From: the human T2T-CHM13v2.0 reference genome, Homo sapiens
Direction: 5' to 3'
Assembly (NCBI GenBank): GCA_009914755.4
Contig: CP068257.2
Location: 5,984,001-6,048,000, forward strand
Length of the DNA: 64,000 nt
Part shown: one piece after another, positions 30,001 to 61,401 of the stretch
Numbering within the stretch: the first letter of the stretch is position 1
Layout: each line of letters starts with the position of its first letter
Translations under genes and position numbers: made by a program
The notes under the pieces: generated by a model
The model's database searches: none
Told to the model about the DNA's origin: nothing
Seen by the model: only the letters and a program-made list of their open reading frames with translations

Positions 30001-30250
30001 CCATTCGAGTCCATTCCATTTCTATTCCTTTCATTTCCATTCCTTTCCATTCGAGTCCATTCCATTCCACTCGATTCTATTCCATGTGATTCCATTGCAT
30101 TCCAGACCGTTCCATTCCGTTCCATTCAATTCGAGTCCATTCCATTCGATTACATTTCATTAGATTCCATTTCATTCGATTCCATTCCATTCGAGTCCAT
30201 TCCATTCCATTCCATTCCAGTCCATTCCATTCGAATCCATTCTCTTCTAT
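1..30250. repeat. Classical satellite III (HSat3), (GGAAT)n family, seen as the (ATTCC/CATTC)n strand
   Basis: Near-continuous pentamer periodicity 'CCATT/ATTCC' with diverged 'CATTCGAGTCC'-type variants. Only the C/T-rich strand appears on +, with no inversions. Every ORF in the track here translates to IPFHS/MEWNG low-complexity peptides. Confidence 0.9.
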
Positions 30251-30573
30251 TCCATTCCATTCCATACCGCTCCGTTCTACTTTACTCCACTCCACCACAC
30301 TAAATTCCATTATATCCAACTCCATTCCATGCCATTCCACTCCTCTCCTCTGCACTGCACTCCACAGCGCTCCATTCCACTCCATCCCATTCTATTCTGC
30401 TCCATTCCACTGCAATCTTCTCCACCCCACTCATCTCCACTTCATTCCATTCCATTCCATTCCATCTCATTGCATGCGTCTCCATTCTAGTCAACTCTAC
30501 TTCACCCCACTCTTCTCCACTTCAGTCCACTCCATTCGATTCCATTCCATTTCCCTGCATTCTGTTCTATTCC

Positions 30574-30637
30574 TTTCTTTTGAAAGTATCTCACTCTGTC
30601 ACCCAGCCTGCAGCGCAGTGGCACAATCTCAGCTCAC
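30574..30637 (-). mobile_element. Alu 3'-end fragment (antisense, includes poly-A remnant), class A
   Basis: 'ctttcttttgaaagtatctcactctgtcacccagcctgcagcgcagtggcacaatctcagctcac' is the reverse complement of the Alu right-monomer terminus 'GTGAGCCGAGATCGCGCCACTGCACTCCAGCCTGGGCGACAGAGCGAGACTC..AAAA'. Confidence 0.8.
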
Positions 30638-30834
30638 ATTTCATTTCATCATTCCATTGCATTCCATTCCACTCTATTCCACTCTACTCCACTCCACTCC
30701 AATCCATTCCACTCCACTCCACTCCAGTCCATTCCACTCCACTCCTTTCCATTCCATCCCATTTCATTCCACTCCTTTCCACTCCACACCAATCCTCCCC
30801 ACTCCATTCCATTCCACTCCTTTCCTTTCCATTC

Positions 30835-30898
30835 CTTTCTTTTGACAGGATCTCACTCTGTCACCAAGACTTGTGTGCAGTGGCAGAATCTCATCTCA
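30835..30898 (-). mobile_element. Alu 3'-end fragment (antisense), class B
   Basis: 'tttgacaggatctcactctgtcaccaagacttgtgtgcagtggcagaatctcatctca'. Confidence 0.75.
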
Positions 30899-31026
30899 TA
30901 TTTTACTTCACCATTTCATTCCATTCCATTCTGTTCCACTGCACTCCACTCCACTCCACTGAATTCTACTCCACTCCACTCCAATCGATTCCTTTCCATT
31001 CCATTCCAATCCCTTCCATTCCACTC

Positions 31027-31090
31027 CTTTCTTTCAACAGGATCTCCCTCTGTCACACAGGCTGTAGCACGTGGCGTAATCTCAACACAC
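31027..31090 (-). mobile_element. Alu 3'-end fragment (antisense), class C
   Basis: 'ctttcaacaggatctccctctgtcacacaggctgtagcacgtggcgtaatctcaacacac'. Confidence 0.75.
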
Positions 31091-31627
31091 ATTCCTTTTC
31101 ACCATTTCATTCCATTCCATTTCATTCCATTCCATTCCATTCCATTACAATTCATTCCATTCCACTGCATTCCTTTTCACTCTATTCCAGTCCACTCCAC
31201 TCCATTTCATTCCACCGCATTCCATTCCACTCTTTTCCACTCTTTTCCACTCCATTCCACTCCATTCCATTTCATTCCACTCCATTCCATTTCACTCCAC
31301 TCCACTCCTCTCCACTCCATTCCACTCCACTCCACTCCATTCCACTCCACTCCATTCCATTTCATTCCATTCCACTCCATTCCTTTCCCTTCCACTCCGT
31401 TCCTTTCCCTTCCATTCCATTCCATTCCATTGCATTCTACTCCACTCCACTCGTTTCCTCTCCCTTCCATTACACTCCACTCATTTCCTTACCATTCCAT
31501 TCCTTACCATTCCATTCCACTCCACTCCTTTCCATTCCATTGCAGTCCACTCCACTCCGCTCCACTCCACTCCACTTCACTGTACTCCTTTTCACTCCAT
31601 TCCATTTCACTCAATTGCATTCCATTC

Positions 31628-31691
31628 CTTTCTTTCGACACTATATCAGTGTGTCACTCAGGCTGGAGAGCAGTGGCACAGTCCCTGCTCA
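31628..31691 (-). mobile_element. Alu 3'-end fragment (antisense), class D
   Basis: 'ctttctttcgacactatatcagtgtgtcactcaggctggagagcagtggcacagtccctgctcac', followed by the 'attacatgacaactttccatt' signature. Confidence 0.75.
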
Positions 31692-32100
31692 CATTACATG
31701 ACAACTTTCCATTTCATTGCATTCTATTTCATTGCATTCTATTGCATTCCATTCCATTCCATTCTATTCCATTCTATTCCTTTCCACTCCACTCCACTCC
31801 ACAACATTCCATCCCATTCCACTCCACTCCACTCTACTACATTACATCACATCCAATTCCATTCCACTCCATTCCACTCCTCTCCACTCCCCTTCTCTCT
31901 AAACCACTCCATTTCACTCCATCCCATTCCATTCCGCTCCATTCCACTGGACTCCGCTCCACCCCACTCCACTCCACTTCTTTCAATTCCATTCCATCCC
32001 ATTCCATTCCTCTCCATTCCACTCCACTCCACTTCACTCCACTCCACTCCAGTCCACTCCATTCCAATCCATTCCATTCCACTGCATTCCATTCCATTCC

Positions 32101-32164
32101 TTTCTTTCGAGTGTATCTCACTCCGTCACCCAGCCTGGAGAGCAGTGGCACAATCTCAGCTGAC
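32101..32164 (-). mobile_element. Alu 3'-end fragment (antisense), class A
   Basis: 'tttctttcgagtgtatctcactccgtcacccagcctggagagcagtggcacaatctcagctgac'. Confidence 0.75.
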
Positions 32165-32376
32165 ATTTCATTTCACCATTCCATTCCATTCCGTTCCATT
32201 CAGTTCCATTCTGCTCTACTCTACTCCACTCCATTGCAATCCATTCACTTCACTCCACTCCATTCCATTCCACTCCACTCCTTTCCCTTCCATCCCATTC
32301 CATTGCACTCCTTTCCTCTCCAATCCACTCTACTCCACTCCATTCCATTCCATTGCACTCCATTAGATTGCATTCC

Positions 32377-32436
32377 TTTCGTTTGACAGGATTTCACTCT
32401 GTCACCCAGGCAGGAGTGCAGTGGCACAATCTCACC
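32377..32436 (-). mobile_element. Alu 3'-end fragment (antisense), class B
   Basis: 'tttcgtttgacaggatttcactctgtcacccaggcaggagtgcagtggcacaatctcac'. Confidence 0.75.
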
Positions 32437-32562
32437 CCATTTTTCATTTCACCATTCCATTCCTTTCCATTCCACTGCACTCCACTCCAATCCACTGAAT
32501 TCCACTCCACTCCACTCCAACCTATTCCATTCCGTGCAATTCCAATCCCTTCCATTCCTCTC

Positions 32563-32627
32563 CTTTCTTTTGACAAGATCTCCCTCTCTCACACAGGGTG
32601 TAGCGCAGTGGCACAATCTCAGCACAC
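32563..32627 (-). mobile_element. Alu 3'-end fragment (antisense), class C
   Basis: 'ctttcttttgacaagatctccctctctcacacagggtgtagcgcagtggcacaatctcagcacac'. Confidence 0.75.
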
Positions 32628-32930
32628 ATTTCTTTTCACGATTCCATTCCACTCCATTTCATTCCTTTCCATTCCGTTTCATTCCATTCCATTCATTTCA
32701 ATTGCATTCCATCCCACTCCATTCCATTCCATTCCATTCCACTCCATTCAATTCCATTCCACTCTATTCCATTCCATTCCACTCCACTCCATTCCATTCC
32801 ACTCCAATCCATTCCACTCCACTCCTCTCCACTCCACTCCTCTAAACTCCACTCCACTCCATTCCATTCCTTTCCATTCCATTCCATTCCATTCCATTCC
32901 ATTCCATTCCATTCCATACCATTCCTTCCC

Positions 32931-32994
32931 TTTCTTTCCAAAGGATCTCACTCTGTCACAGGGGCTGGAGTGCTGTGGCACAATCTCAGCTCAC
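32931..32994 (-). mobile_element. Alu 3'-end fragment (antisense), class E
   Basis: 'tttctttccaaaggatctcactctgtcacaggggctggagtgctgtggcacaatctcagctcac'. Confidence 0.75.
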
Positions 32995-33180
32995 ATTTCT
33001 TTTCACCATTCAATTACGTTCCATTCCATCCCATTCCATTCCTCTCTATTTCACTCCACTCCACTCCATTCCACTCCATCCCATTCCAGTCGACTCCATT
33101 GAACTAAACTCCATTCCACTCCACTCAAATCCATTCCATTCCATTCCATAACATTTCACTCCATGGCATTCCATAGCTTC

Positions 33181-33241
33181 CTTTCCACTGTATATCACTT
33201 TGTCACCCAGGCTTGAGTGCAGTGGCACTATCTCAGCTCAT
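33181..33241 (-). mobile_element. Alu 3'-end fragment (antisense), class D
   Basis: 'ctttccactgtatatcactttgtcacccaggcttgagtgcagtggcactatctcagctca', followed by 'tattacatgtcaactttccattgc'. Confidence 0.75.
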
Positions 33242-33652
33242 ATTACATGTCAACTTTCCATTGCATTGCATTCTATTCCATTGCATTCAATTGCATTCCA
33301 TTCCTTTCCATTACATCCTTTCCATTCCATTCCTTTCCCTTCCATTCCACTCCGTTCGACTCCACTCCACTCCTCTACATTCCATTACATCTGATTCCAT
33401 TCCACTACATTCCACTCCTCTCCATTCAACTACACTCCACTCCACTCCATTCCACTCCATTCCAATCCATTCCGCTCCATTCCACTGCACTTCCCTCCAC
33501 CCCTCTCCACTCCACTTCATTCCATTCCATTCCATCCCATTCCATTCCCCGCCATTCCACTCCACTCCACTTCTCTCCACTCCACTCCTCTCCAGTTCAC
33601 TCCATTCCACTCCACTCCACTCACTCCACTCCACTGCATTCCATTCCACTCC

Positions 33653-33716
33653 CTTCTTTCGAGAGTATCTCACTCTGTCACCCAGCCCGGAGTGTAGTGG
33701 CACAATCTCAGCACAC
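33653..33716 (-). mobile_element. Alu 3'-end fragment (antisense), class A
   Basis: 'cttctttcgagagtatctcactctgtcacccagcccggagtgtagtggcacaatctcagcacac'. Confidence 0.75.
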
Positions 33717-33894
33717 ATTTCATTTCACCATTCCTTTCCATTCTATTCCATTCCATTCCATTCAACTCCACTCCACTCCAATGCATTCCACTCCTCTCCA
33801 TTCCCGTCCATTCCATTCCACTCCTTTCCATTCCACTCCTTTCCACTCCACTTCCCTCCAATCCACTCCATTCCATTCCACTCCATTCTATTCC

Positions 33895-33957
33895 TTTGTT
33901 TTGATGGGGTCTCACTCTGTCACCCAGGCTGGTGTGCAGTGGCACAATCTCAGCTCA
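33895..33957 (-). mobile_element. Alu 3'-end fragment (antisense), class B
   Basis: 'tttgttttgatggggtctcactctgtcacccaggctggtgtgcagtggcacaatctcagctca'. Confidence 0.75.
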
Positions 33958-34065
33958 TATTTCATTTCACCATTCCACTGCACTCCACTCCACTCCACTC
34001 AATTCCACTCCACTCCACTCCAATCCATTCTTTTCCATTCCATTCCAATCCCTAACATTCCACTC

Positions 34066-34130
34066 CTTTCTTTTGACAGGATCTTCCTGTGTCACACAGG
34101 CTGTAGCACAGTGGCACAATCTCAGCACAC
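34066..34130 (-). mobile_element. Alu 3'-end fragment (antisense), class C
   Basis: 'ctttcttttgacaggatcttcctgtgtcacacaggctgtagcacagtggcacaatctcagcacac'. Confidence 0.75.
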
Positions 34131-34556
34131 ATTTCTTTTCACCATTTGATTCCATTCCATTCCACTCTATTTCTTTCCATTCCAATCCCTTCCACTGCAC
34201 TCCACTCCACTCCACTCCTCTCCATTCCCCTCCACTCCACTCCATTCCACTCCATGCCACTCCATTCCACTCCACTCCACTCCATTCCATTCCACTCTAC
34301 TCCATTCCACTCCACTCCTCTCCATTCCACTCCAATCCATTCCACTCCATTCCACTCCTTGCCACTCCATTCCACTCCACTCCACTCCATTCCATTCCAC
34401 TCTATTCCACTCCACTCCACTCAATGCCACTCCCCTCCACTACACTCCATTCCACTCCACACCTATCCACTCCACTCCACTCCCCTCCACTGCATTATAT
34501 TCTTCTCCACTCCACTCCCCTCCACTACATTATATTCCACTCCATTCCATTCCATT

Positions 34557-34620
34557 CTTTCTTTCCACAGGATTTCACTCTGTCACAAAACTGGAGTGCA
34601 GTATCACAATTTCAGCTCAC
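34557..34620 (-). mobile_element. Alu 3'-end fragment (antisense), class E-like
   Basis: 'ctttctttccacaggatttcactctgtcacaaaactggagtgcagtatcacaatttcagctcac'. Confidence 0.7.
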
Positions 34621-35293
34621 ATTTCTTTTCACCATTCCATAGTATTCCATTCCATCGCATTCCATTCTACTCTATTTCATTCCACTCCACTCCACTCCAT
34701 TCCGTTCCACTCCACTCCGTTCCATTCCACTCCATCCCATTCCATTGGACTCCACTCCATTCCACCCCATTCCACTCCACTGCATTTCACTCCATTCCAC
34801 TCCATTCCACTCCACTGCACTCCACTCCACCCCACTCCATTCCATTCCACTCCATTCCATTCCATTGCACTCCATTCCATTCCATTCCATTCCACTCCTT
34901 TCCATTCCATTCTACTCCACTCCATTCCGCTCTACTCCACTCAACTCTACTCCTCTCCACTCCACTCCATTCCATTCCATTCCACTCCATTCCATGCCAT
35001 TCCATTCCACTCCACTCCTTTCCATTCCATTCCACTCCACTCCATTCCACTCTACTCCATTCCACTCCACTCCATTCCACTCTACTCCTCTCCACTCCAC
35101 TCCATTCCAGTCCACTCCATTACACTCCACTCCATTCCACTCTATTCCCCTCCACTCCACTCCATTCTATTCCATTCCACTCCATTCCATGCCATTCCAT
35201 TCCACTCCATTCCAGTCCTCTCCATTCCACTCTACTCTATTCCACTGCACTCCACTCCATTCCATTCCATTCTACTCCATTCCATTCCGTTCC

Positions 35294-35357
35294 TTTATTT
35301 CTACTGGATCTCACTCTATCAACCAGACTGGAGTTCAGTGGCACAATCTTAGATCAC
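35294..35357 (-). mobile_element. Alu 3'-end fragment (antisense), class B-like
   Basis: 'tttatttctactggatctcactctatcaaccagactggagttcagtggcacaatcttagatcac'. Confidence 0.7.
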
Positions 35358-35683
35358 ATTTCATTTCATCATTCCATTCCATTCCTTTCAATTCTATTCA
35401 GTACAACTCCGTTCCACTCCACTCCACTCCACTTAATTCCATTACATCCGATTCCATTCCACTCCATTCCACTCCTCTCCTCTCCACTGCACTCAACTCC
35501 ATTCCACTCCATCCCATTCCAATCTGCTCCATTCCACTGCAATCCCCTCCACCCCACTCATCTCCATTTCATTCCATTCCATTCCATCCCATTCCAGTCC
35601 ACTCCACTTCACCCCACTCCATTCCACTGCAGTCCACTCCATTCCATTCCACTGCATTAAATTATATTCCATTCTTTTGAAAG

Positions 35684-35734
35684 AATCTCACTCTGCCACC
35701 CAGCCTGGAGCACAGTGACACAATCTCGGGTCAC
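35684..35734 (-). mobile_element. Alu 3'-end fragment (antisense), class A
   Basis: 'cttttgaaagaatctcactctgccacccagcctggagcacagtgacacaatctcgggtcac'. Confidence 0.7.
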
Positions 35735-36006
35735 ATTTCATTTCACGATTCCATTCCATTCCATTCCATTCCACTTCACTCCACTCTTCTCCACTCCACT
35801 CCAATCCACTCCACTCTACTCCACTCCATTCCAGTCCACTCCACTACACTCCATTCCATCCCATGCCATTCCACTCCTTTCAACTGCACTCCACTCCACT
35901 CCATTCCAGTCCACTCCACTACACTCCATTCCATTCCACGCCATTCCACTCCTTTCCACTCCACTCCACTCCACTCCACTCCACTCCATTCCATTCCATT
36001 CCACTC

Positions 36007-36071
36007 CTTTCTTTTGACAGAATCTCACTCTGTCACCCAGGCTGGTGTGCAGTGGCACAGTTTCATCTCAC
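36007..36071 (-). mobile_element. Alu 3'-end fragment (antisense), class B
   Basis: 'ctttcttttgacagaatctcactctgtcacccaggctggtgtgcagtggcacagtttcatctcac'. Confidence 0.75.
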
Positions 36072-36193
36072 ATTTCACTTCAGCATTCCATTCCATTCCA
36101 TTCTATTCCACTGCACTCCACTGCACTCCACTCCACTCAATTAGACTCCACTCCAGTCCAATTCATTCCATTCCAATCCCTTCAATTCTAAGC

Positions 36194-36258
36194 CTTTCTT
36201 TCGACAGGATCTCCCTCTGTCACACTGGCTGTAGTGCATTGGCACAGTCTCAGCACAC
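36194..36258 (-). mobile_element. Alu 3'-end fragment (antisense), class C
   Basis: 'ctttctttcgacaggatctccctctgtcacactggctgtagtgcattggcacagtctcagcacac'. Confidence 0.75.
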
Positions 36259-36770
36259 ATTTCTTGTCACCATTTCATTCCATTCCGTTCCATTCCATTC
36301 CATTCTATTACACTACATTCCATTCCACTGCATTCCATTCCACTCTACTCCAGTGCACTCTACTCCATTTCATTCCACTACATTCCATTCCACTCTTTTC
36401 CACTCCATTCCAATCTATTCCGTTCCATTCCTCTCCATTCCATTCCACTCCACTCCACTCCATTCCACTCCTCTCCACCCCATTCCTCTCTACTCCACTC
36501 CATTCCACTCCACTCCATTCCATTTCATTCAATTCCACTCCATTCCATTCCCTTCCATTACATTCCATTTGATTGCATTCCACTCCATTCCACTCCATTC
36601 CTCTCCATTCCACTCCACTCTGCTCCGTTCCATACCATTCCATTCCATTCCATTCCTCTCCACCCTATTCCAATCCATTGCATTCCACTCCACTCCACTT
36701 TAATCCACTCCACTCCTCTCCACTCCATTCCATTCCATTTCACTCCATTGCATTCCATTCCTTTCTTTCA

Positions 36771-36834
36771 ACAGGATATCACTGTGTCACCCAGGCTGGA
36801 GTGCAGTGGCACAATCTCTGTTCACATTACATGT
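36771..36834 (-). mobile_element. Alu 3'-end fragment (antisense), class D
   Basis: 'ctttctttcaacaggatatcactgtgtcacccaggctggagtgcagtggcacaatctctgttcac', followed by 'attacatgtcaactttccatt'. Confidence 0.75.
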
Positions 36835-36986
36835 CAACTTTCCATTTCACTGCATTCTATTCCATTGCATTCCATTGCTTTCCATTTCATTCCATTCCAG
36901 TCCATTCCATTCCATTCCACTCCACTCCATTCCATTCCATTCCATTCCACGCCACTCCACTCCATTCCATTCCATACCATTCCTTT

Positions 36987-37052
36987 CCTTTCTTTCCAAA
37001 GGATCTCACTCTGTCACAGAGGCTGCAGTGCAGTGGCACAATCTTAGTTCAC
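36987..37052 (-). mobile_element. Alu 3'-end fragment (antisense), class E
   Basis: 'cctttctttccaaaggatctcactctgtcacagaggctgcagtgcagtggcacaatcttagttcac'. Confidence 0.75.
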
Positions 37053-37246
37053 ATTTCTTTTCATCATTCCTTTGCATTCCATTCAATCCCATTCCATTCC
37101 TCTCTATTTCACTCCACTCCACTCCACTGCATTCCATTCCACTCCATCCCATTCCATTCGACAACATTCCACTAAACTCCACTCCACTCCACTCAACTCC
37201 ATTCCATTCCGTTCCATACCATTTCACTCCATTCCATTCCATAGCT

Positions 37247-37309
37247 TCTTTTCCACAGGATATCACCGTGTCACCCAGGGTGGAGTGCAGTGACACTATC
37301 TCAGCTCAC
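37247..37309 (-). mobile_element. Alu 3'-end fragment (antisense), class D
   Basis: 'tcttttccacaggatatcaccgtgtcacccagggtggagtgcagtgacactatctcagctcac', followed by 'cttacatgtcaactttccattgc'. Confidence 0.75.
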
Positions 37310-37695
37310 CTTACATGTCAACTTTCCATTGCTTTGCATTCAATTGCATTCCATTCCATTCCATTCCATTCCATTCCATTCCATTCCACTCCGTTCGACT
37401 CCACTCCTCTCCACTCCTCTACATTCCATTACATCTGATTCCATTCCACTCTATTCCACTCGTCTCCACTCCACTGCACTCCACTCCATTCCACTCCATT
37501 CCACTCCATCCCATTCCATTCCACTCCATTCGACTGCACTCCACTCCACCCCACTCTATTCCTCTTCATTCCATTCCATTCCATCTCATTCCATTACTCT
37601 CCATTCCACTCCACTCCACTTCACTCCACTCCACTCCTCTCCAGTCCACTCCATTCCATTCAATTCCATTCCATTACACTGCATTCCATTCCATT

Positions 37696-37760
37696 CCTTT
37701 CTTTCGAGAGTATCTCACTCTGTCACCCAGCCTGGAGCGTGGTGGCACAATCTCAGCTCA
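37696..37760 (-). mobile_element. Alu 3'-end fragment (antisense), class A
   Basis: 'cctttctttcgagagtatctcactctgtcacccagcctggagcgtggtggcacaatctcagctca'. Confidence 0.75.
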
Positions 37761-37958
37761 TATTACATTTCACCATTCCATTCCATTCTCTTCCTTTCTA
37801 TTCCACACCACTCCACTCCAGTACGTTCCCCTCCACTCCACTCCATTCCAGTCCATTCCAGTCCTTTCCATTCCATCCCATTCCATTCCACTCCTTTCCA
37901 CTCCACTCCCCTCCACTCCACTCCAATCCATTCCATTCCACTCCATTCCATTCCATTG

Positions 37959-38024
37959 CTTTCTTTTGACAGGACCTCACTCTATCAACCAGGCTGATAT
38001 GCAGTGGCACAATCTCAGCTCACA
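37959..38024 (-). mobile_element. Alu 3'-end fragment (antisense), class B
   Basis: 'ctttcttttgacaggacctcactctatcaaccaggctgatatgcagtggcacaatctcagctcac'. Confidence 0.75.
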
Positions 38025-38151
38025 TTTCATTTCACCATTCTACTCCATTCCATTCCATTCTATTCCACTGCACTCCACTCCAGTCAATTCCATTCCACTC
38101 TACTCCAATCAATTCCATTCCATTCCATTCCAATCCCTTCTACTCCACTCA

Positions 38152-38183
38152 TTTCTTTCAACAGGATCTCCCTGTGTCACACA
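38152..38183 (-). mobile_element. Alu 3'-end fragment (antisense), class C, internally deleted
   Basis: 'tttctttcaacaggatctccctgtgtcacaca' runs directly into 'tttcttttcaccatttc'. The 'ggctgtagc...ctcagcacac' middle seen in other class-C copies is missing. Confidence 0.6.
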
Positions 38184-38624
38184 TTTCTTTTCACCATTTC
38201 ATTCCATTCCACTCCAGTCCACTCCACTCCATTCCAATCCATGTCAATCCATTCCACTCCACTCCATTCCATTCCACTCTACTTCACTCCAGTCCACTCG
38301 TCTCCATTCCACTCCACTCCACTCCACTGAATTCCACTCCATGCCACTCCATTCCACTCCACTGCATTCCACTGCATGACACTCCATTCCACTCCACTCC
38401 ACTCCATTCCATTCCACTCCACTCCACTCCATTCCATTCCACTCTACTCCACTCCATTCCACTCCACTCAATTCCATTTCACTCCACTCCACTCCATTCC
38501 TCTCCACTCCACTCCACTCCTCTCCACTCCTCTCCACTGCATTCCATTCCACTCCATTCCTCTCCACTCCACTCCTCTCCACTCCACTCCACTGCATTCC
38601 ATTCCACTCCATTCCATTCCATTA

Positions 38625-38689
38625 ATTTCTTTCCACAGGAACTCACTATGTCACAAAGGCTGGAGTGCAGTGGCACAGTCTCAGCTGAC
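38625..38689 (-). mobile_element. Alu 3'-end fragment (antisense), class E-like
   Basis: 'atttctttccacaggaactcactatgtcacaaaggctggagtgcagtggcacagtctcagctgac'. Confidence 0.7.
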
Positions 38690-38836
38690 ATTTCTTTTCA
38701 CCATTCCATTGCATTCCATTCCATCCTATTCCATTCCACTCTATTTCACTCCACCCCACTCCACTCCATTCCTTTCCACTCCTTCCCTTTCCATTCCGCT
38801 CCACTCCACTCCATTCCACTCCGTTGCATTCCATTC

Positions 38837-38901
38837 ATTTCTTTCAACAGGATATCACTGTGTCACCCTGGCTGGAGTGAAGTGGCACAATCTCAGCTCA
38901 C
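38837..38901 (-). mobile_element. Alu 3'-end fragment (antisense), class D
   Basis: 'atttctttcaacaggatatcactgtgtcaccctggctggagtgaagtggcacaatctcagctcac', followed by 'gttacatgtcatctttccattgc'. Confidence 0.75.
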
Positions 38902-39333
38902 GTTACATGTCATCTTTCCATTGCGTTGCATTCTATTCCATTGCATTCCATTGCATTCCATTGCATTCCATTCCATTCCAGTCCTTTCCATTCTATTCCA
39001 TTCCATTAAATTCCATTCCATTCCATTCTGTTCCACTCCACTCCCCTGCACTGCACTACATTCCATTACACCCGATCCCATTCCACTCCATTCCAGCCCT
39101 CTCCACTCCACTGCACTCCACTCCACTCTATTCCAATCCATCCCATTCCATTCCGCTCCATACCACTGCACTCCACTCCACCCCACTCCACTCCTCTTCA
39201 TTCCATTCCATTCCATCTTTTTCCATTCCTTTCGATTGCACTGTACTCCACTTCACTCCACTCCACTCTGCTCCACTCCACTCCACTCCACTCCAAACCA
39301 TGCCATTCCATTCCACTGCATTCAATTCCATTC

Positions 39334-39397
39334 CTTTCTTTCGAGAGTATCTCACTCTGTCACCCAGCCTGGAGCACAGTGGCAGAATCTCAGCTCA
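39334..39397 (-). mobile_element. Alu 3'-end fragment (antisense), class A
   Basis: 'cctttctttcgagagtatctcactctgtcacccagcctggagcacagtggcagaatctcagctcac'. Confidence 0.75.
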
Positions 39398-39626
39398 CAT
39401 TTCATTTCACCATTCCATTGCATTCTACTCCATTAAATTCCAATGCACTCCACTCCACTCCAATCCATTCCACTCCACTCCACCCCAGTCCAGTCCACTC
39501 CAGTCCTTTTCTTTCCTTCCCATTCCATTCCACTCCTTTCTACTCCACTCCATTCCACTTCTTTCAATTCCATTACATTCCATTCCACTCCATTCCACTC
39601 CATTCCACTCCATTCCATTCCAGTAC

Positions 39627-39689
39627 TTTCTTTTGACTGTATCTCACTCTGTCACCCAGGCTAGTGTGCAGTGGCACAATCTCAGCCCA
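39627..39689 (-). mobile_element. Alu 3'-end fragment (antisense), class B-like
   Basis: 'tttcttttgactgtatctcactctgtcacccaggctagtgtgcagtggcacaatctcagccca'. Confidence 0.7.
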
Positions 39690-39804
39690 TAATTTCACCA
39701 TTCCATTCCATTCCATTCCACTGCACTCCACTCCACTCCACTCAATTCCACTTCACTCCACTCCTATCCATTCCATTCCATTCCAATCCCTTCCATTCCA
39801 CTCC

Positions 39805-39836
39805 TTTATTTCAACAGGGTCTCCATCTGTCACACA
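39805..39836 (-). mobile_element. Alu 3'-end fragment (antisense), class C, truncated at the HSat3/beta-satellite junction
   Basis: 'tttatttcaacagggtctccatctgtcacaca' is followed immediately by 'tgatcacccaggtgataggac', the first beta-satellite monomer. Confidence 0.7.
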
Positions 39837-42800
39837 TGATCACCCAGGTGATAGGACTTTTGTCTAGGCTCTGCCTACGGTGGCATTGTGACATATCTCT
39901 TCACTGATCACCCAGGTGATGTAACTCTTGTGTTGGATCTGCCTAGGGGGAATCATGACATATTTCTGCACTGATCACCCAGGTGTTGGGACTCTTGTCT
40001 AGGCTCTGTATATGGGGGATTTGTGACATATCCCTGCACTGATCACCCAGGTGATGTAACGCTTGACTAGGCTGTGAATTCTGGGGCATAGTGACATCAC
40101 TACATTGATCACTGAGATGACGTAACTCTTGTCCAGGCTCTAGCTATAGAAGGCCCAGTGACATATCTCTGCACTGATCATCTACTTGATGTAACTCTTG
40201 GTTACACATTGCCTGCAGAGGCATTGTGAAATATCTCTTTACTGATCAACCAGGTGATCTAAGTCTTGTCTAGGCTCTGCCTACAGGGGGTTTTGTGGCA
40301 TAACCCTGCACTGATCACCCAGGTGATGGGACTCTTCTCTAGGCTCTGCCTATTGGGGGCATTGTCACATATTTCTGCACTGATCACCCAGGTGATGGAC
40401 TCTTGTCTTGGATCTGCCCATGGGGGCATTGTGACATATCTCTGCACTGATCACCCAGGTGATGTAACTCTAGTCTAAGCTCTGCCTAAAGTGGCATTGT
40501 GACAGATCTCTGTACTGATCACTCAGCTGATGTAACTATTGTCTAGGCTCTGCTTAAAGGGGCCTTGTCACATATGTCTACACTGATCACCCAGGTGATG
40601 TAACTGTTGTCTAGGTTCTGCTTACAGAGGATATTGTAACATATCTCTGCACTGATAACGTAAGTGATGTAATACTTGTGTAGGCTCTGCCTACAGGGGC
40701 ATTTTGACATATCTCTGCACTGTTAACCGAGGTGATGTAATTCTTCTCTAGGCTGTGCCCACAGGGGCGTTGAGACATATCTCTGCACTGATCCCAAGGT
40801 GATCCAACTGTTGTCTGGGCTCTGCCTACTGGGGGCATTGTGACATATCTCTGCACTGATCTCCCACGTGATGTAACTTTTATCTAAGCTCGGGCTACAT
40901 GGCATTGTGACATATTACTGCACTGATCACCCAGGTGATATAACCCTTGTCTAGGCTCTGCCTACAGGGGGCTTGTGACACATCTCTGCACTGATCACCC
41001 AGGTGATGTATCTCTTGTCTAGGATCCGCCTACAGGTTGCTTTGTGACATATCCCTGCAATGATCACCCAGGTGATGTACCACTTGTCAAAGCTCTGACT
41101 ACAAGGGGTTTGCTATGTATCTCTGCACTGATAATATAGGTCATGTATCTCTTGTCTAGGCTCTACCTACAGTGGCATTGTGATATATCTCTGCACTGAT
41201 CACCCAGGTGATGGAATCCTTGTCTAGGCTCTGCCAAAATGGGGCATTGTGATATAACTCTGCACTGATCACCCAGGTGATGCGACTCTTGTCTAGGCTC
41301 TGCCTACAGGAGCATTGTGACATATCTCTGCATTGATCACGCAGGTGATGTAACTCTTGTCTATATCTGCCTACTGGTGGCATTGTGGCATATTTCTGCA
41401 CTGATCACCCAGGTGATGGACTCTTGTCTTGGATCTGCCTATGGGGGCATAATGACATATCTCAGCACTGATCACTCATATGATGTAACGCTTGTCTAAG
41501 CTGCGCCAAAAGGGGAATTGTGAAAGATATCTCCACTGATCACCCAGGTGATGTAACAATTTTCTGGTATTTGTCTACAGGGTGCTTTGTGACATATCTT
41601 TGCACTGATCACCCAAGAGATGTAACACTTGTCTAGGCTCGGCCTACAGGGGCTTTGTGACATATGTCTGTACTGATCACCCAGGTGAAGTAACTCTTGT
41701 CTAGGCTCCACCTACAGGGGGTATTGTGACGTATCTCTGCACTGATCACCCAGGTGATGTAACATTTATCTAGGCTCTTCCTACAGGGGCGTTTTGACAT
41801 AGCTCTGCACAGCTCACCTAGGTTATATAACTCTTGTCCACTCTCTGCCTACAGGGGCATTGTGAAACATCTCTGCACTGATCACCCAGGTGATGCGACT
41901 CTTCTCTATACTCTGCCTAGAAGGGGTTTGTGACATACCTCTGCACTGATAACCCAGGTGATGGAAGTCTTGTCTAGGCTCTGTCTATGGGGGCATTGTG
42001 TCAAATATCTGCACTGTTCACCCAGGTGATGTACCTCTTTTCTAGGCTCTGTCTACAGGGATTTTTGTGACATATCACTGCACTGATCACCTAGGCGATA
42101 TAAGCTTTGTATGGGCTTTGCCTACAGAAGGCTTTGTGACATATCTATGCACTGATCTCTGAGGTGACGCAACTCTTGTCTAGGCACTGCCTACAGGGTA
42201 CATTGGTACATAACTCTGCACTGAGCACCCAGGTGATGGACTCTTGTCTGAGATCTGCCTACAGGGACATTGTGATACATCTCTGAACTGATCAACCAAG
42301 TGATGAAACTCATGTCTAGGCTCTGCCTACAGGGGCTTTGTGACACATCTCTACACTGATCACCCTGGGGAAGGAACTCTTGTCTATGCTCTGCCTACAG
42401 GGGACATTGTGGCATATGTCTGCACTGATAACCCAGGTGATGCAACTCTTCTCAATGCTCTGCCTACATTTGGCATTGTGACATATCTCTGCACTGATCA
42501 CCCATTTGATGTAACTCTTTTCTAGTCTCTGCCTACAGAGGGCGTTGTGACATCACTCTGCACGGATCACACGGGTTATTTAACTCTTGTCTAGGCTCTG
42601 CCTACGTGGGCATTGTGACTTATCTCTGCACTGATCACCCAAGAGATGTGTCACTTGTCTAAGCTCTGTGTAGAGGGACATTGGGACATATCTCTGCCCT
42701 GATCGCTGAGGTGATGTAAAATTTGTCTAGGCTTGCCTACAGTGGGATTTATGACGTATCTCTGCACTGATCACCCAGGTGATGTAACTCTTGTCTAGGC

Positions 42801-43694
42801 TCTGCTTACAGGGAGTATTGTGAGATATCTCTGCACTGATCACACAGGTGATGAAACTCTCGTCTAGGCTCTGCCTACAGGGGCTTTGTGACACATCTCT
42901 GCACTGATCACCCTAGGGAGTGAACTCTTGTCTACGCTCTGCCTACAGGAATCTTTATGACTTATACCTGCACTGATAACCTAGGTGATGTAACACTTGT
43001 CTAGGCTCTGCCTACACGGGAATTCTCACATATCTCTGCACTGATCACCCAGGTGATGTAACTCCTGTCTAGTTTCAACCAACGGGAGCGTTTTGACATA
43101 TCTCTGCCCTGATGACCCAGGTGATGTAACCCTTGTCTAAGCTCTGCCTACAGGGGCATTGTATCAGATCTCTCCAATGCTCACCCAGGTGATGTAACAA
43201 TTGTCTGAGCTTTGCCTACAGGGGGCTTTGTGATATACATTTCCACTGATCAAACAGGTGATGTAACCCTTGTCAAGGTTCTGCTTACAGGGGATTTGTG
43301 ACATAGCTCTGCACTGATCACCCCAGGGAGGAAACACTTGTCTGCACTCTTCCTAAAGGAGGATTTACGACTTATCCCTGCACTGATCACTAGGTGATGT
43401 AACACTTGTCTAGGCTCTGTCTACATGGGAATTTTCACATATCTCTACACTAATCCCCTAAGTGATGTAACCCTTGTCTAGGTTCAGCCTACTGGGGATT
43501 TCTGACATACCTATGCACTGATCACTGAGGTGATGTAAATCATTTCCAGGCTTTTTGTACAGGGGACCTTGTGATATATCTCTGCACTGATCACCCAAAT
43601 GATGCAAATCGTCTCTAAGCTCTGCAGGGAGGGGGCATTGTGACATACTTCTGAACCAATCATCCAGGAGATGTAAGTATACTCCAGGCTTTGA
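39837..43694. repeat. Beta-satellite (Sau3A/BSR 68-69-bp monomer) array 1
   Basis: Monomers of the type 'ctgcactgatcacccaggtgatgtaactcttgtctaggctctgcctacaggggcattgtgacatatct' with one GATC each. Measured spacing of 'ctgatcaccc' is 69, 69 bp (39902, 39971, 40040). Collinear monomer-by-monomer with array 2. Confidence 0.9.
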
Positions 43695-44401
43695 CTTAAG
43701 AGCATCGCAAGGTGTTGGGAGAGCCTCAGCCGGAATTTCACAGACAGACAAGGACAAAGAGAGGCCAGCGGGCTCCCTTGCACATCAGCCAGGGTGCGCA
43801 ATGAGCGCAGGTTTAGCCAGGAGGCTGGCAAAGAGAGCTAGAAGTCTGCGTTCTGCCGCCAGGCGCTCCAAGGTGGTAGCTGGGAGGCTGCAGGGGCACG
43901 GGCGGGCCGACGACGGTGGCTCAGAGGCGCAGAGGAGGTGAGCCGCCGGAGGCGTGTCAGGCCTGGACGCTGCGTGGGCCCAGTGTTTCACGGGACGGGG
44001 GTCTCCACCCTGCCCAGGGGAGGACGCATTTTCCGTGGATGGGGGGTGGGGGTGTGGGGTGTTGGTCAGGCGGGGTTGGGGTGGTGGAAAGGCATGAGAT
44101 CTCTGCCTGGGCTGCTCCCAAAGCCCAGGCGGCTACCCCACAACACGCACTTGCACAGTAGGCGGCCCACCTGCTGGTACCTGGGCTGGCTCTGGGATCC
44201 CCGGGATGCCCAGGAAAGAATGGCTGTTCTCCACTGTGTGGAGCCTCTTACTGGGCCTAGACCTAGAAGGCAGGAATCCCAGGCCGGTCAGCCCGGTTGT
44301 GGGGGCGGGGGAAGACACAACCCTCCATAACCAGCCAGGTGTTCCCTGGGAAAGAGAGGCCACCGCCCTGCCCCGACCCGACCCCGCCCCAACCCCGCGT
44401 C

Positions 44402-45841
<1,440 letters not shown>

Positions 45842-46460
45842 TCATGAATGGCGGTGAACCCTGGGAATGCCCACCCCACCCCAGAAGGGTTCCAGGGTGT
45901 CGAGGCCTGCGGCCTGGGGGTGGTGGGGGGGGAGGGCGTGGTGATGTCGCTGGTGAGGCCAGAGACACGAAGAGGAAGGGGGTGAGGGGGAAGGGGTGAG
46001 GTGGGCGCATTTCACGGGCTGGCTCTCCGGACCTCTCCAAGAATCCCACGGGAAATGGAAGCCAATCTCTGGGCTCCCACGCGTCTTCAGCAGGGAGAAA
46101 CCGGCCTGGGAGGGTGGAGGGGAGTGTAAACCTTAACCCCCGTGGGAGTCTTGAGTGTTCCAGACCCTCTCTCCGTGAAGGAGGCAGTGCCTGTGGCAGT
46201 CGCCGTTGCCAGGACAGTCTCACACACCCAGGCGTGTGGCTCTCGTTAATTTCCATGTATGAGACCAGAGTGAGACCCCAGAGAGAAGGTGCCTCCCCAG
46301 CGTGATGACCTGACGATGGATTCCCATGTGCGGCAACATGGGGAGTCTGCAGTGTGGCCGGTTTGGAAACTGGCAAGGAGAGCAAAGGCACCATTCGGGT
46401 CTTCCACCCTTCCCTGCATGTTTCCGGGTGCCCGCAGAGCTCTGGGAGCAAACAGTCAGC

Positions 46461-49400
46461 ATGACACATCTCTGAACTGATCAACAAAGTGATGTAACTC
46501 TTGTCTAGGCTCTGCCTACAGGGGCTTTGTGACATATCTCTGCACTGATCACCCAGGTGATGAGACTTTTGTCTAGGCTCTGCCTATGGGGGCATTGTGA
46601 CATATCTCTACACTGAACACCCAGGTGATGTAACTCTTGTGTTGGATCTGCCTATGGGGTCATTGTGACATATTTCTGCACTGATCACCCAGGTGACGGG
46701 ACTCTTATCTAGGCTCTGTGTATGGGGGCTTTGTGACATCTCTGCATTGATCACCCAGGTGATGTAACGCTTGACTAGGCTCTGCCTACGGTTCATAGTC
46801 ACATATCACTGCATTGATCACCGAGGTGATGTAACTCTTGTCCATGCTCTGCCTATAGGGGTCCTTGTGACATATCTCTGCACTGATGATCTACGTGATG
46901 TAACTCTTGCTTATGCTCTGCCTGCAGGGGCATTGTGAAATATCTCTGCACTGATCACCCAGGTGATGGGACTCTTCTCTAGGCTCTGCCTAATGGGGGC
47001 ATTGTCACATATTTCTGCACTGATCACCCAGGTGATGGACTCTTGTCTTGGATTTGCCTATGGGTGCATTGTGACATATCTCTGCACTGATCACCCAGTT
47101 GATGTAACTCTGGTCTAAGCTCTGCCTAAAGGGGCATTGTGACAGATCTCTGCACTAATCACTCAGGTGATGTAACTATTGTCTGGGCTCTGTTTAAAGG
47201 GGCCTTGTCACATATCTCAGCACTGACCACCCAGGTGATGTAACTCTTGTCTAGCCTCTGCTTACAGAGGTTATTGTGACATATCTCTGCACTGGTCACT
47301 TAATTGATGTAACAATTGTGTAGGCTCTGCCTACAGAGGCATTTTGACATCTCTCTGCACTGTTAACCGAGGTGATGTAACTCTTGTCTAGGCTGTGCCC
47401 ACAGGAGTATTGAGGCATATCTCTGCACTGATCCCGAGGTGATCCAACTCTTGCCTGGTCTCTGCCTACTGGGGACATTGTGACATATCGCTGCACTGAT
47501 CTGCCAAGTGTGTAACTTTAGTCTAGCCTCTGGCTACACGGCATTGTGACAGATCTCTGCACTGCTGACCCAGGTGATATAACTCTCGTCTGGGCTCTGC
47601 CTACAGGGGGCTTTTGACATATCTCTGCACTGATCTCCCAGGTGATGTAACTCTTTTCTAGGATCTGCCTACAGGGTGCTTTGTGACATATCCCTACAAT
47701 GATCACCCAGGTGAGGTACCACTTGTCAAGGCTCTGCCTACAGGGACATTGCGATGTGTCTCTGCACTGATCACCTAGGTCATGTAACTCTTGTTTAGGC
47801 TCTGCCTACAGTGGCATTGTGACATATCTCAGCACTGATCATTCAAGTGATGTAACTATTGTCTAGGATCTGCCTAACGGGATTTTGTGACATAACTCTG
47901 CACTGATCATCCAGGTGATGGGACTTTTATCTAGGCTCTGCCTAAGGGGGCATTGTGACATATATCTGCACTGATCACACAGGTGACGGGCCCTTGTCTT
48001 AGATCTGTCTATGAGGGCATAGTGACATATCTCTGCACTGATCACTCATGTGATGTAACGGTTTTTAAGCTGCGCCTAAAGGGGAATTGTGACAGATATC
48101 TCCACTGCTCACCCAGGTTATGTAACAATTTTCTGGGATTTTTCTACAGGGGGCTTTGTGACATATCTCTGCACTGATCACCCAGGTGATGTAACTCTTG
48201 TCTAGGCTCCACCTACAGGGATTATTGTGACGTATCTCTGCTCTGATCACCCAGGTGATGTAACATTTATCTAGGCTCTCCCTACAGGGGCGTTTTGACA
48301 TAGCTGTGCACAGATCAACTAAGTTATGTAACTCTTGTTCACTCTCTGCCTACAGGGGGCATTGTGAAATATCTCTGCACTGATCACCCAGGTGATGGGA
48401 CTCTTCTCTATACTCTGCCTACGGGGGATTTGTGACATATCTCTGCACTGATCACCCAGGTAATGGAAGTCTTGTCTAGGCTCTGTCTATCTTGACATTG
48501 TATCAAATATCTGCACTGATCACCCAGGTGATGTAACTCTTTCCTAGGCTCGGTCTACAGTGATTTTTTTGACATATCACTGCACTGATCGCCTAGGTGA
48601 TGTAAGCCTTGTATGGGCTTTGCCTACAGAAGGCTTTGTGACATATCTCTGCACTGATCTCTGAGGTGATGCAACTCTTGTCTAGGCACTGCCTTCAGGG
48701 TACATTGGTACATATCTCTACACTGATCACCCAGGTGATGGACTGTTGTCTTAGATCTGCCTACATGGACATTGTGACCCATCTCTGACCTGATCAACCA
48801 AGTGATGAAACTCTTGTCTAGGCTCTGCGTACAGGGGCTTTGTGACACATCTCTACACTGATCACCCTGGGGAGGAAACTCTTGGCTACGCTCTGCCTAC
48901 AGGAGGCTTTATGCCTTATACCTGCACTGATAACCTAGGTGATGTAACACTTGTCTAGACTCTGCCTTCACCGGAATTCTCACATATCTCTGCACTGATC
49001 ACACAAGTGATGTAACTCCTATCTAGGTTCAGCCTTCAGGAGCGTTTTGACATATCTCTGCACTGATCACCCAGGTGATGTAACCCTTGTCTAAGCTCTG
49101 CCTACAGGGGCATTGTGACAGATCTCTCCACTGCTCACCCAGGTGATGTAACAACTGTCTGGGCTTTGCCTACAGGGGGCTTTGTGATATACATTTCCAC
49201 TGATCAAACAGGTGATGTAACACTTGTCAAGGTTCTGCTTACAGGGGCTTTGTGACATATCTCTGCTCTGATCAACCTAGGGAGGAAACACTTGACTGCA
49301 CTCTGCATAGAGGGGACTTTACGACTTATCACTGCGCTGATTACAAGGTGATGTAACACTTGTCTAGGCTCTGTCTACACGTTAATTTTCATATATCTCT

Positions 49401-49649
49401 ACACTGATCACCTAAGTGATGTAACCCTTGTCTAGGTTCAGCCTTTTGGGGATTTCTGACATACCTATGCACAGATCACCGAGGTGATGTAAATCATTTC
49501 CAGGCTTTTTGTACAGGGGACATTGTGATATATCTCTGCACTGATCACCGAAATGATGCAAATCTTCTCTAGGCTCCGCAGGGAGGGGGCATTGTGACAT
49601 ATTTCTGAACTGATCATCCAGGAGATGTAACTATTCTCCAGGCTTTGAC
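46461..49649. repeat. Beta-satellite array 2 (higher-order block between D4Z4-like cores)
   Basis: Same 68-69-bp monomer family. The array starts 'acacatctctgaactgatcaacaaagtgatgtaactcttgtctagg' exactly as arrays 3 and 4 do. Array 1 positions 40500-41230 align monomer-for-monomer with 47130-47860. Confidence 0.9.
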
Positions 49650-50356
49650 TAAAGAGCGTCGCAAGGTGTTGGGAGAGCCTCAGCTGGAATTTCACCAACG
49701 GACAAGGGCACAGAGAGGTCAGCCGTCTCCCTTGCATGTCAGCCGGGGTGCGCAAAGAGCACAGGTCTAGCCAGGAGCATGGCAAAGAGAGCTAGATGTC
49801 TGTGTTCCGCTGCCAGGCGCTCCATGGTGGCTGCTGAGAGGCTGCAGGGTCACGGGCTTGCTGGCGATGGTGGCGCGGATGTGCAGAGGTGGCGAGCCTT
49901 TGGAGGGGTGTCAGGCCTGGATGCTGCGCGGGCCCGGTGTTTCGCGGGATAGGGGTCTCCACACAGCCCAGGGGAGGACACATATTCCGGGGTTGGGGGG
50001 TGGGTGTGGGGAGGTGGTGGTCAGGTGGGGGTGTGGTGGTGGAAAGGCATGAGAGCTCTGCCCGGGCTGCTCCCACAGCCCAGGCGACTGCCTACAAACA
50101 CGCACGTGCACAGTAGGCAGCCCACCTGCTGGTACCTGGTCCGGCTCTGGAATCCCCGTGATGCCCAGGATAGAATGGCAGTTCTCCGCTGTGTGGAGTC
50201 TCTCACGGGGCCTAGACCTAGAAGGCAGGAATCCCAGGCCGGTCAGCCTGGTGGAGGGGGCGGGGGACTAAACGCCCCTCCATAACCAGACAGGTGTTAA
50301 CCGCGAAAGAGAGGCCACCGCCCTGCCCCTACCCGACCCCGTCTCAACCCTGCGTC

Positions 50357-51769
<1,413 letters not shown>

Positions 51770-52425
51770 GCCCGCAGGCAGGCAGGTTCCACAACTTCAT
51801 GAATGGTGGTGAGCCCTGGGACAGCCCGCCCCACCCCGGAAGGGTCCCAGGACTTCGTGGCCTGCGGCAGGGTGGTGGTGGGGAGGGCGGGGGAGGGCAT
51901 GTGGATGGTGGTGGATGGGTCGGATAGACGAAGAGGAAGGGGGCGAGGGGGAAGTGGTGAAGGGGGCACGTTTCGGGGCCTGGCTCTCTGAACCTCTCCA
52001 GGAATCCGGTGGGAACTGGAAGCCGCTCTCTTGGCTCCCACTTGTCTTCAGCAGGGAGAAACCGGCCTGGGAGTGTTTAGGGGAGTGTTGAACTGAACCT
52101 CCGTGGGAGTCTTGAGTGTTCCAGGCCCTCTCTCCATGAAGGAGTCTGTGCCTGTGGGTGTCGGCGTTGCCGGGACAGTCTCACTGACGCAGGCGTGTGG
52201 CTCTCATTCATTTCCACGTAGGAGACCAGAGTGAGACCCCAGAGAGAAGATGCCTCCCCGGCGTGATGGCCTGACGATGGATTCCCGTGTGGGGCAACAT
52301 GGGGACTCTGCAGTGTGGCCAGTTTGGAAACTGGTAAGGAGAGCGAAGGCACCATGCCGGTCTTCCACACTTCCCTGCATGTTTCCGGGTGCCCGCAGAG
52401 CTCCAGGAGCAAACAGTCAGCATGA

Positions 52426-60000: not shown

Positions 60001-61305
<1,305 letters not shown>

Positions 61306-61401
61306 TCAGAGAGAGTCCGGTAGGCTCCCGTGCACCTCAGCTGGACTGTGCACTGCGGCAAGTGCAGCCAGGAGACCAGCCGGGACAACAAGCCAGCAGT
61401 T

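What the first reader, a model, noticed from the sequence alone, without database searches (positions are those of the whole stretch)
39800..39845. HSat3/Alu-to-beta-satellite breakpoint lies in a 'TCACCCAGG' microhomology and truncates the beta higher-order repeat by one monomer
The last class-C Alu fragment ('...gggtctccatctgtcacaca') passes directly into 'tgatcacccaggtgataggacttttgtctagg', the first beta monomer. Both the Alu segment ('gtCACCCAGGctgg') and the beta-satellite monomer ('gatCACCCAGGtgatg') contain 'CACCCAGG'. The two satellite families therefore appear to have been joined through this shared 9-mer. Array 1 also starts one monomer (about 85 bp) later than arrays 2, 3 and 4. Position 39837 aligns with 46545, not with 46461. 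The junction thus lies inside the composite unit and marks the proximal edge of the D4Z4-like/beta array.
Basis: seen in the sequence. Interest (0 to 1): 0.55.

Follow-up and report, generated by a model that had tools for sequence, protein, structure and literature searches.

The report
Blunt HSat3-to-beta-satellite array boundary
This is an ordinary, sharp boundary where one block of human satellite DNA (HSat3 carrying Alu fragments) meets a known D4Z4-like/beta-satellite repeat array; the two were joined end to end without any shared bases, not through the proposed 9-base microhomology.

Summary
The junction exists and is unique in the window. HSat3 carrying antisense Alu fragments ends at A39836. 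Beta satellite starts at T39837.

Confirmed: the first beta block (39837-43676) is colinear with the later blocks only from their position +85. 39837 aligns with 46546, 52507 and 62145. It therefore lacks a 16-18 bp partial monomer plus one 68-bp monomer.

Refuted: the join is not inside 'TCACCCAGG'.
- All full-length class-C Alu copies read TCACACAGG or TCACACTGG, never CACCCAGG.
- The junction reads TGTCACACA|TGATCACCCAGG. It keeps class-C-specific CACACA and beta-specific TGA, so both parental versions of the motif sit side by side, 10 nt out of register.
- The bases flanking the break differ between the parents (G vs T, C vs A), so microhomology is 0 bp.

The GC-rich spacers are D4Z4-like units with DUX4-like pseudogenes on the minus strand. 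This is the published LSAU-beta composite. Alu fragments inside HSat3 are also published.

Best reading: a non-homologous, blunt end-joining event that cut the terminal unit of an existing composite array. The end-joining mechanism is inferred. Whether the junction is fixed could not be tested here. Interest is low.

The parts
1..30250 (+). Plain HSat3, (ATTCC)n with ATTCGA variants, GC about 0.38
   Evidence: 59-85 ATTCC per kb with no beta or Alu motifs; composition profile; sequence read at 29700-30700
30251..39836 (+). HSat3 variant rich in CACTC, GC about 0.47. It carries 27 full or partial antisense Alu 3'-end fragments plus the truncated terminal one, in an irregular 1.5-2.1 kb higher-order pattern
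39806..39836 (+). Terminal class-C Alu fragment, truncated after TCACACA
   Evidence: The 40 nt to the left of the break match the class-C copies at 31021, 32563, 34060, 36194 and 38145 at 32-37 of 40 positions, against 10 of 40 for beta. The terminal unit is 91-95% identical to the 31021 unit
39836..39837 (+). Breakpoint: blunt, 0 bp microhomology
   Evidence: The next class-C base is G where the junction has T. The previous beta base is C where the junction has A
39837..43676 (+). Beta-satellite block 1 (56.3 monomers of 68 bp), lacking the 84-85 bp that blocks 2-4 have next to the D4Z4-like unit
   Evidence: TRF; colinearity with 46547, 52508 and 62146
43677..46461 (-). D4Z4-like (LSau) unit 1 with a DUX4-like pseudogene at 44402-45670 (8 internal stops)
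46462..49651 (+). Beta-satellite block 2 (46.8 monomers)
   Evidence: TRF
49652..52422 (-). D4Z4-like unit 2 with a DUX4-like pseudogene at 50357-51625 (4 internal stops)
52423..59298 (+). Beta-satellite block 3 (100.8 monomers, contains internal block duplications)
   Evidence: TRF; paired hits such as 53327 and 54892
59299..62061 (-). D4Z4-like unit 3; the DUX4-like region is fragmented
   Evidence: tblastn hits come in several pieces across 60255-61266
62062..64000 (+). Beta-satellite block 4, cut by the end of the window
   Evidence: TRF

Best explanation
Positions 39836|39837 are a single, sharp, non-homologous junction between two known kinds of human heterochromatic repeat. On the left is an HSat3 array whose higher-order units carry a fossil antisense Alu 3'-end fragment. 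On the right is a tandem array of the LSAU-beta (D4Z4-like plus beta-satellite) composite repeat.

The composite array already existed when the join was made. Blocks 2-4 hold 84-85 bp that block 1 lacks, so block 1 cannot be their source. One break fell in the beta part of the terminal unit. The other fell in a class-C Alu fragment after TCACACA. The two ends were joined blunt, with no shared bases, as in classical non-homologous end joining or any other homology-independent rearrangement such as a deletion, translocation or insertion between heterochromatic blocks.

Shown here: the position of the break, the identity of both parents, the absence of microhomology, and the truncation. Inferred: the repair pathway and the order of events.

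The TCACCCAGG shared by Alu and beta satellite is a real but incidental similarity and did not serve as the crossover point.
For: - The sequence switch is abrupt. The left 40 nt match class-C copies at 32-37 of 40 and beta at 10 of 40. The right 40 nt match beta blocks 2 and 3 at 37-38 of 40 and class C at 9-13 of 40.
- The flanking parental bases differ on both sides, so microhomology is 0 bp.
- Class-C copies read TCACACAGG or TCACACTGG, never TCACCCAGG.
- The junction is unique in the window.
- TRF starts the beta array at 39837.
- Block 1 is colinear with blocks 2-4 from their position +85, at 90-94% identity against 76-85% off register.
- The spacers are D4Z4-like with DUX4-like pseudogenes.
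- The composite repeat and its 80-95% within-array identity in centromere transition regions are published. HSat3 intermingled with Alu fragments on the Y and the acrocentrics is published.
- No HSat3 pentamers occur to the right of the junction and no beta or LSau sequence to its left within 39.8 kb.
Against: - Both breaks lie at or next to the respective copies of the shared motif: inside the class-C homologue, and 3 nt upstream of the beta copy. A rough post-hoc estimate gives about 1% for that by chance, so some influence of local similarity cannot be strictly excluded.
- The repair pathway cannot be read from one old junction. Later point mutations could have erased 1-2 bp of microhomology.
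- No reads or second assembly were available to exclude a misjoin.
- The other end of the rearrangement is outside the window.
Confidence: 0.8

Rival explanations
1. One reading: the two satellites recombined within the shared TCACCCAGG or CACCCAGG microhomology, by microhomology-mediated end joining or template switching.
For: The 9-mer is present in both families on the same strand. Both breaks are within a few nucleotides of their motif copies.
Against: An in-register exchange would give one hybrid motif (CTGTCACCCAGGTGAT). The observed sequence is CTGTCACACA-TGA-TCACCCAGGTGAT, with class-C-specific ACA and beta-specific TGA both kept. The extra 10 nt contain sequence specific to each parent, so they cannot be a later insertion. 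No class-C copy contains CACCCAGG. The breakpoint has 0 bp of shared sequence.
Confidence: 0.04
2. A join with minimal microhomology (1 bp, T) from a class-C copy that already carried the internal CACACA-to-CACACA deletion seen at 38145 (GTCACACA|TTTCTTTTCACC). The break would then be at CACACAT|GATCA.
For: The neighbouring class-C copy at 38145 has a deletion whose left end is at the same CACACA. With that parent the T at 39837 is ambiguous.
Against: The terminal unit is not closest to the 38145 unit (88%). It is closest to the full-length 31021 unit (91-95%). One base of ambiguity is what chance gives and does not change the non-homologous nature of the join.
Confidence: 0.1
3. Assembly or cloning artefact: a chimeric join of two unrelated satellite contigs or clones.
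For: The junction is seen once only, lies in highly repetitive DNA, and no read support is available here. The break abuts a GATC (Sau3A/BclI) site on the beta side.
Against: Overlap assemblers misjoin through long shared repeats, and none exists between the two sides. A ligation chimera at Sau3A sites would need GATC in the left parent too, but class C reads CACACAGGCT there. The adjacent 6-10% diverged, colinear composite units look like natural sequence.
Confidence: 0.05

Closest known systems
LSAU-BETA (LSAU-BSAT) composite repeat / beta-composite arrays of T2T-CHM13 (Hoyt et al., Altemose et al.; originally the Sau3A/LSau linkage of Agresti, Meneveri et al.)
   Same: 68-bp beta-satellite blocks of 3-7 kb alternate with about 2.8-kb GC-rich D4Z4-like units that carry DUX4-like reading frames. 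Unit-to-unit identity is about 83% overall and 90-95% in register for the beta parts. That fits the 80-95% reported for arrays in centromere transition regions.
   Different: Nothing structural. Only the terminal unit is cut 84-85 bp short, where it meets HSat3.
HSat3 arrays intermingled with Alu fragments (reported for chrY and acrocentric short arms in the T2T-Y paper; TE fragments inside HSat units in Altemose et al.)
   Same: Pentameric CATTC-derived satellite with one and the same roughly 60-70 nt antisense Alu 3'-end segment recurring inside the repeat units.
   Different: The subfamily and chromosome could not be assigned here. The fragments fall into recognisable position classes within an irregular 1.5-2.1 kb unit.
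4qA-type arrangement: D4Z4, then pLAM, then beta satellite
   Same: On the minus strand each unit reads: D4Z4-like with DUX4-like frame, then about 0.7 kb of 3' region, then beta satellite.
   Different: The DUX4 frames are broken by 4-8 stops. The units are 5'-truncated and interspersed rather than head-to-tail D4Z4. The pLAM polyadenylation signal was not examined.
Blunt or non-homologous end-joining junctions of germline structural variants
   Same: An abrupt switch with 0 bp microhomology and no filler.
   Different: The pathway is inferred from one ancient junction. No experimental or population evidence is available.

Membership tests
Beta satellite (68-bp Sau3A family) | Tandem monomers of about 68 bp with the GATC-containing core TGATCACCCAGGTGATG | tested here: met
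   TRF gives period 68 and 56.3 copies from 39837, with consensus TGATCACCCAGGTGATGTAACTCTTGTCTAGG...
LSAU-beta composite repeat | Beta blocks regularly interspersed with D4Z4-like/LSau GC-rich units that contain DUX4 homology | tested here: met
   Three GC-rich spacers (GC 0.64-0.67) of about 2.8 kb. tblastn to DUX4 gives 80-81% over 424 aa in two of them and fragments in the third. Units are colinear.
LSAU-beta composite repeat | Match to the curated LSAU/BSR consensus or to the T2T annotation track | not testable with these tools
   No human repeat library or human genome was available. The identification rests on DUX4 homology, on the beta consensus recalled from the literature, and on published descriptions.
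HSat3 | Diverged (CATTC)n/(ATTCC)n pentamer array | tested here: met
   TRF gives period 5 with consensus ATTCC over 29003-39622. There are 39-85 ATTCC per kb across 1-39836.
HSat3 | Assignment to a named subfamily (A1-A6, B1-B5) by diagnostic k-mers | not testable with these tools
   The subfamily k-mer sets are not available here.
Microhomology-mediated junction (MMEJ/MMBIR type) | One or more bases, usually at least 2, at the breakpoint that are identical in both parental sequences, so that the breakpoint is ambiguous | tested here: not met
   0 bp. Class C continues with G where the junction has T. Beta is preceded by C where the junction has A.
Microhomology-mediated junction (MMEJ/MMBIR type) | A single hybrid copy of the shared motif at the junction | tested here: not met
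   Both copies are present: TCACACA (39830-39836) and TCACCCAGG (39840-39848), separated by beta-specific TGA.

The most novel reading that the evidence does not exclude
The two breaks lie next to or inside the two parental versions of the same 9-mer: inside TCACACA|GG of class C, and 3 nt upstream of TCACCCAGG in beta. This may not be coincidence. Transient pairing of the imperfect motif could have held the two ends together. Out-of-register processing, as in synthesis-dependent or polymerase-theta-type end joining, would then produce an apparently blunt join. On that reading, short Alu/beta-satellite homeology would help decide where satellite domains fuse.
Probability: 0.06. Interest if true: 0.3.

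Novelty: already known. Interest (0 to 1): 0.1.

Why it matters
It matters little on its own. Both repeat families, the Alu fragments in HSat3 and the LSAU-beta composite are already described in complete human genome assemblies. A boundary between two satellite domains has to lie somewhere. Its practical value is as a unique sequence tag (…CTGTCACACATGATCACCCAGG…) in otherwise repetitive DNA. Such a tag could anchor reads or trace exchange of this segment between acrocentric short arms or haplotypes. The main result is negative: the proposed microhomology mechanism is wrong.

Tried and rejected
(1) Exact search for the 22-nt junction CTGTCACACATGATCACCCAGG found 0 hits in metagenome contigs and 0 in bacterial/archaeal genome contigs. 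These collections are not expected to hold this human region, so the result is uninformative about fixation.

(2) Two ORFs span the junction (39664-39867 and 39671-39907). Neither product is on record by exact look-up in public assemblies.

(3) A 43-aa junction peptide searched against the 5.8-billion protein set gave no candidates. This is also uninformative.

(4) In-register exchange followed by a 10-nt insertion: rejected, because the extra 10 nt contain sequence specific to each parent.

(5) Alignment of block 1 to the first monomer of blocks 2-4 (a truncation of only about 17 bp): rejected. The variant monomers (GACTTTTG, GTGTTGGATCTGCC, GTAACGCTTGACTAGG) match in order only in the +85 register.

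(6) Long ungapped BLAST registers, for example 40500 against 46462, suggested other offsets. These reflect later block insertions and deletions inside the arrays, not the homology at the start of the array.

(7) An ACACA 5-mer is shared between class C and the first partial monomer of blocks 2-4. Using it would need a second deletion event. It was treated as chance.

(8) In-situ amplification from a founder unit next to HSat3: rejected, because it predicts that block 1 would be longer than blocks 2-4, not shorter.

(9) Literature searches for a described HSat3/beta junction or for microhomology at satellite boundaries found nothing specific.

Full report
**What the window contains.** The window is human-type heterochromatin.
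- Positions 1 to about 30250 are plain HSat3: (ATTCC)n, GC about 0.38, 59-85 ATTCC per kb.
- From about 30250 to 39836 the HSat3 becomes CACTC-rich (GC about 0.47). It carries 27 copies of one and the same antisense Alu 3'-end segment, corresponding to Alu consensus positions about 224-280. The copies are spaced 166-736 bp apart.
- From 39837 onward there are four blocks of 68-bp beta satellite: 39837-43676, 46462-49651, 52423-59298, and 62062 to the window end.
- These blocks are separated by about 2.8-kb GC-rich units (GC 0.64-0.67).
- The GC-rich units are D4Z4-like. On the minus strand they align to DUX4 over all 424 residues at 80-81% identity, but with 8 and 4 internal stops in the first two units.

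**How this matches the literature.** This arrangement is the published LSAU-BETA/LSAU-BSAT composite, or beta-composite array.
- It is reported on 16 chromosomes, with 80-95% within-array identity in centromere transition regions.
- 5'-truncated D4Z4 copies in such regions of the acrocentrics and chr1 are described in PMC10620044.

**The observation.**
- The 25-mer across the bar is unique in the window even with three mismatches allowed.
- Tandem Repeats Finder independently starts the 68-bp array at 39837.

**The truncation claim is correct.**
- A four-way alignment puts T39837 opposite T46546, T52507 and T62145. Distinctive variant monomers follow in the same order in all four blocks (GACTTTTG, then GTGTTGGATCTGCC, then GTAACGCTTGACTAGG).
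- 204-bp windows from block 1 find their best matches colinearly in the other blocks. The first window hits at 94%, 91% and 90%, against 85% or less in any other register.
- Further downstream the path is interrupted by block insertions, deletions and duplications.
- Blocks 2-4 therefore have 84-85 bp that block 1 lacks. That piece is a 16-18 bp partial monomer (CATGACACATCTCTGAAC) plus one full 68-bp monomer. It is not a single 85-bp monomer.

**The microhomology claim is wrong.**
- The four full-length class-C copies (31021, 32563, 34060, 36194) read TCACACAGG or TCACACTGG at this point, never TCACCCAGG. The fifth copy (38145) has lost that stretch by deletion.
- The exact 9-mer occurs in 7 other Alu fragments and in 82 beta monomers, but in no class-C copy.
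- In an ungapped, anchored comparison the 40 nt left of the bar match the five class-C copies at 32-37 of 40 positions and beta at 10 of 40. The 40 nt right of the bar match beta blocks 2 and 3 at 37-38 of 40 and class C at 9-13 of 40.
- The first base after the bar is T, where class C has G. The last base before the bar is A, where beta has C. No base at the breakpoint can be assigned to both parents, so microhomology is 0 bp.
- The junction holds both parental versions of the motif side by side: TCACACA (class C, cut after its seventh base), then beta-specific TGA, then TCACCCAGG (beta).
- A crossover inside a shared motif would leave one hybrid copy (CTGTCACCCAGGTGAT). The 10 extra nucleotides contain sequence specific to each parent, so they cannot be a later insertion into such a product.

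**A side issue.** The class-C copy at 38145 has a deletion of about 36 bp between two CACACA repeats (GTCACACA|TTTCTTTTCACC). Its left end coincides with the junction's break. If the terminal copy descended from that variant, the T at 39837 would be ambiguous, giving 1 bp of microhomology. However, the terminal unit is closest to the full-length 31021 unit (91-95%), not to the 38145 unit (about 88%). Either way the join is non-homologous.

**Order of events (inference).** Blocks 2-4 contain 84-85 bp that block 1 lacks, so the composite units cannot have been amplified from block 1 as it now stands. Amplification in place from a founder next to HSat3 would make block 1 longer, not shorter. The composite array therefore pre-existed, which agrees with its presence on many chromosomes. 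The junction truncated its terminal unit. No beta or D4Z4-like sequence lies anywhere in the 39.8 kb to the left, so the reciprocal end is not in the window.

**Orientation.** Read in the orientation of the DUX4-like frame (minus strand), each unit runs: D4Z4-like, then about 0.7 kb of 3' region, then beta. Block 1 is thus the beta tail of the last unit, cut 84-85 bp before its usual end. The edge lies within 85 bp of a unit boundary in a unit of about 6-9.6 kb. That is a mild coincidence, roughly 2-3% post hoc, for which I have no explanation.

**Mechanism.** The best-supported reading is a homology-independent, blunt end-to-end join between a break in a class-C Alu fragment of HSat3 and a break in the beta part of the composite. 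This could be classical NHEJ or an equivalent rearrangement. The pathway is inferred, not shown.

One caveat is fair. Both breaks lie at or beside the respective motif copies. A rough post-hoc estimate of that proximity arising by chance is about 1%: about 4% for the HSat3 side times about 22% for the beta side. I therefore keep a small probability for a homeology-assisted but out-of-register join.

An assembly or cloning artefact is unlikely. The two sides share no overlap, and the left parent has no GATC at the break. This cannot be excluded without reads.

**Attempts to find the junction elsewhere.** All were negative and uninformative, because the accessible collections are not human genome assemblies:
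- exact pattern scans of metagenome contigs and of prokaryotic genome contigs;
- exact look-up of the two junction-spanning ORF products;
- a protein search with a junction peptide.

Literature searches found no description of this specific junction and no systematic analysis of microhomology at satellite boundaries.

**Verdict.** The junction is real and precisely placed, and the beta truncation is real. The proposed mechanism is refuted. All components are known repeat types in a known arrangement. Interest is low. The junction is useful mainly as a unique marker in repetitive DNA.

Noticed in passing
window 38145-38200: This class-C Alu fragment has an internal deletion of about 36 bp lying exactly between two CACACA direct repeats (GTCACACA|TTTCTTTTCACC). 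It looks like a 6-bp microhomology or slippage deletion. Its left end coincides with the point where the terminal class-C copy is cut at the beta junction.
   Followed up: partly
window ~30250-30270: There is an abrupt change of HSat3 type: a plain ATTCC/ATTCGA-rich array (GC 0.38) gives way to a CACTC-rich array with Alu fragments (GC 0.47). This is a second satellite-subfamily boundary. It was located by eye and its exact breakpoint was not analysed.
   Followed up: no
window 30573-39836: All 27 Alu fragments cover the same Alu segment (about the last 60-70 nt, antisense) and fall into recurring position classes. This points to one ancestral Alu piece amplified with the HSat3 higher-order unit rather than independent insertions. 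The unit length is irregular (1.5-2.1 kb between class-C copies).
   Followed up: partly
window 44402-45670, 50357-51625, 60255-61266 (minus strand): These are DUX4-like reading frames inside the GC-rich units. They are 80-81% identical to DUX4 over 424 aa but broken by 8 and 4 stops. The third copy is fragmented or frameshifted. They are pseudogenes of the divergent D4Z4 family.
   Followed up: partly
window 52423-59298: Beta block 3 is about twice as long (100.8 monomers) as blocks 1 and 2. It contains internal block duplications (for example about 53055-53803 and 54754-55436 both match 40246-41062). Block 1 is a mosaic of segments found in block 2 and/or block 3, consistent with unequal exchange in monomer register.
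   Followed up: partly
window 39837 vs unit boundary at 46462: The array edge lies only 84-85 bp from a D4Z4-like/beta unit boundary in a unit of about 6-9.6 kb. This is roughly a 2-3% coincidence, post hoc, and is unexplained.
   Followed up: no
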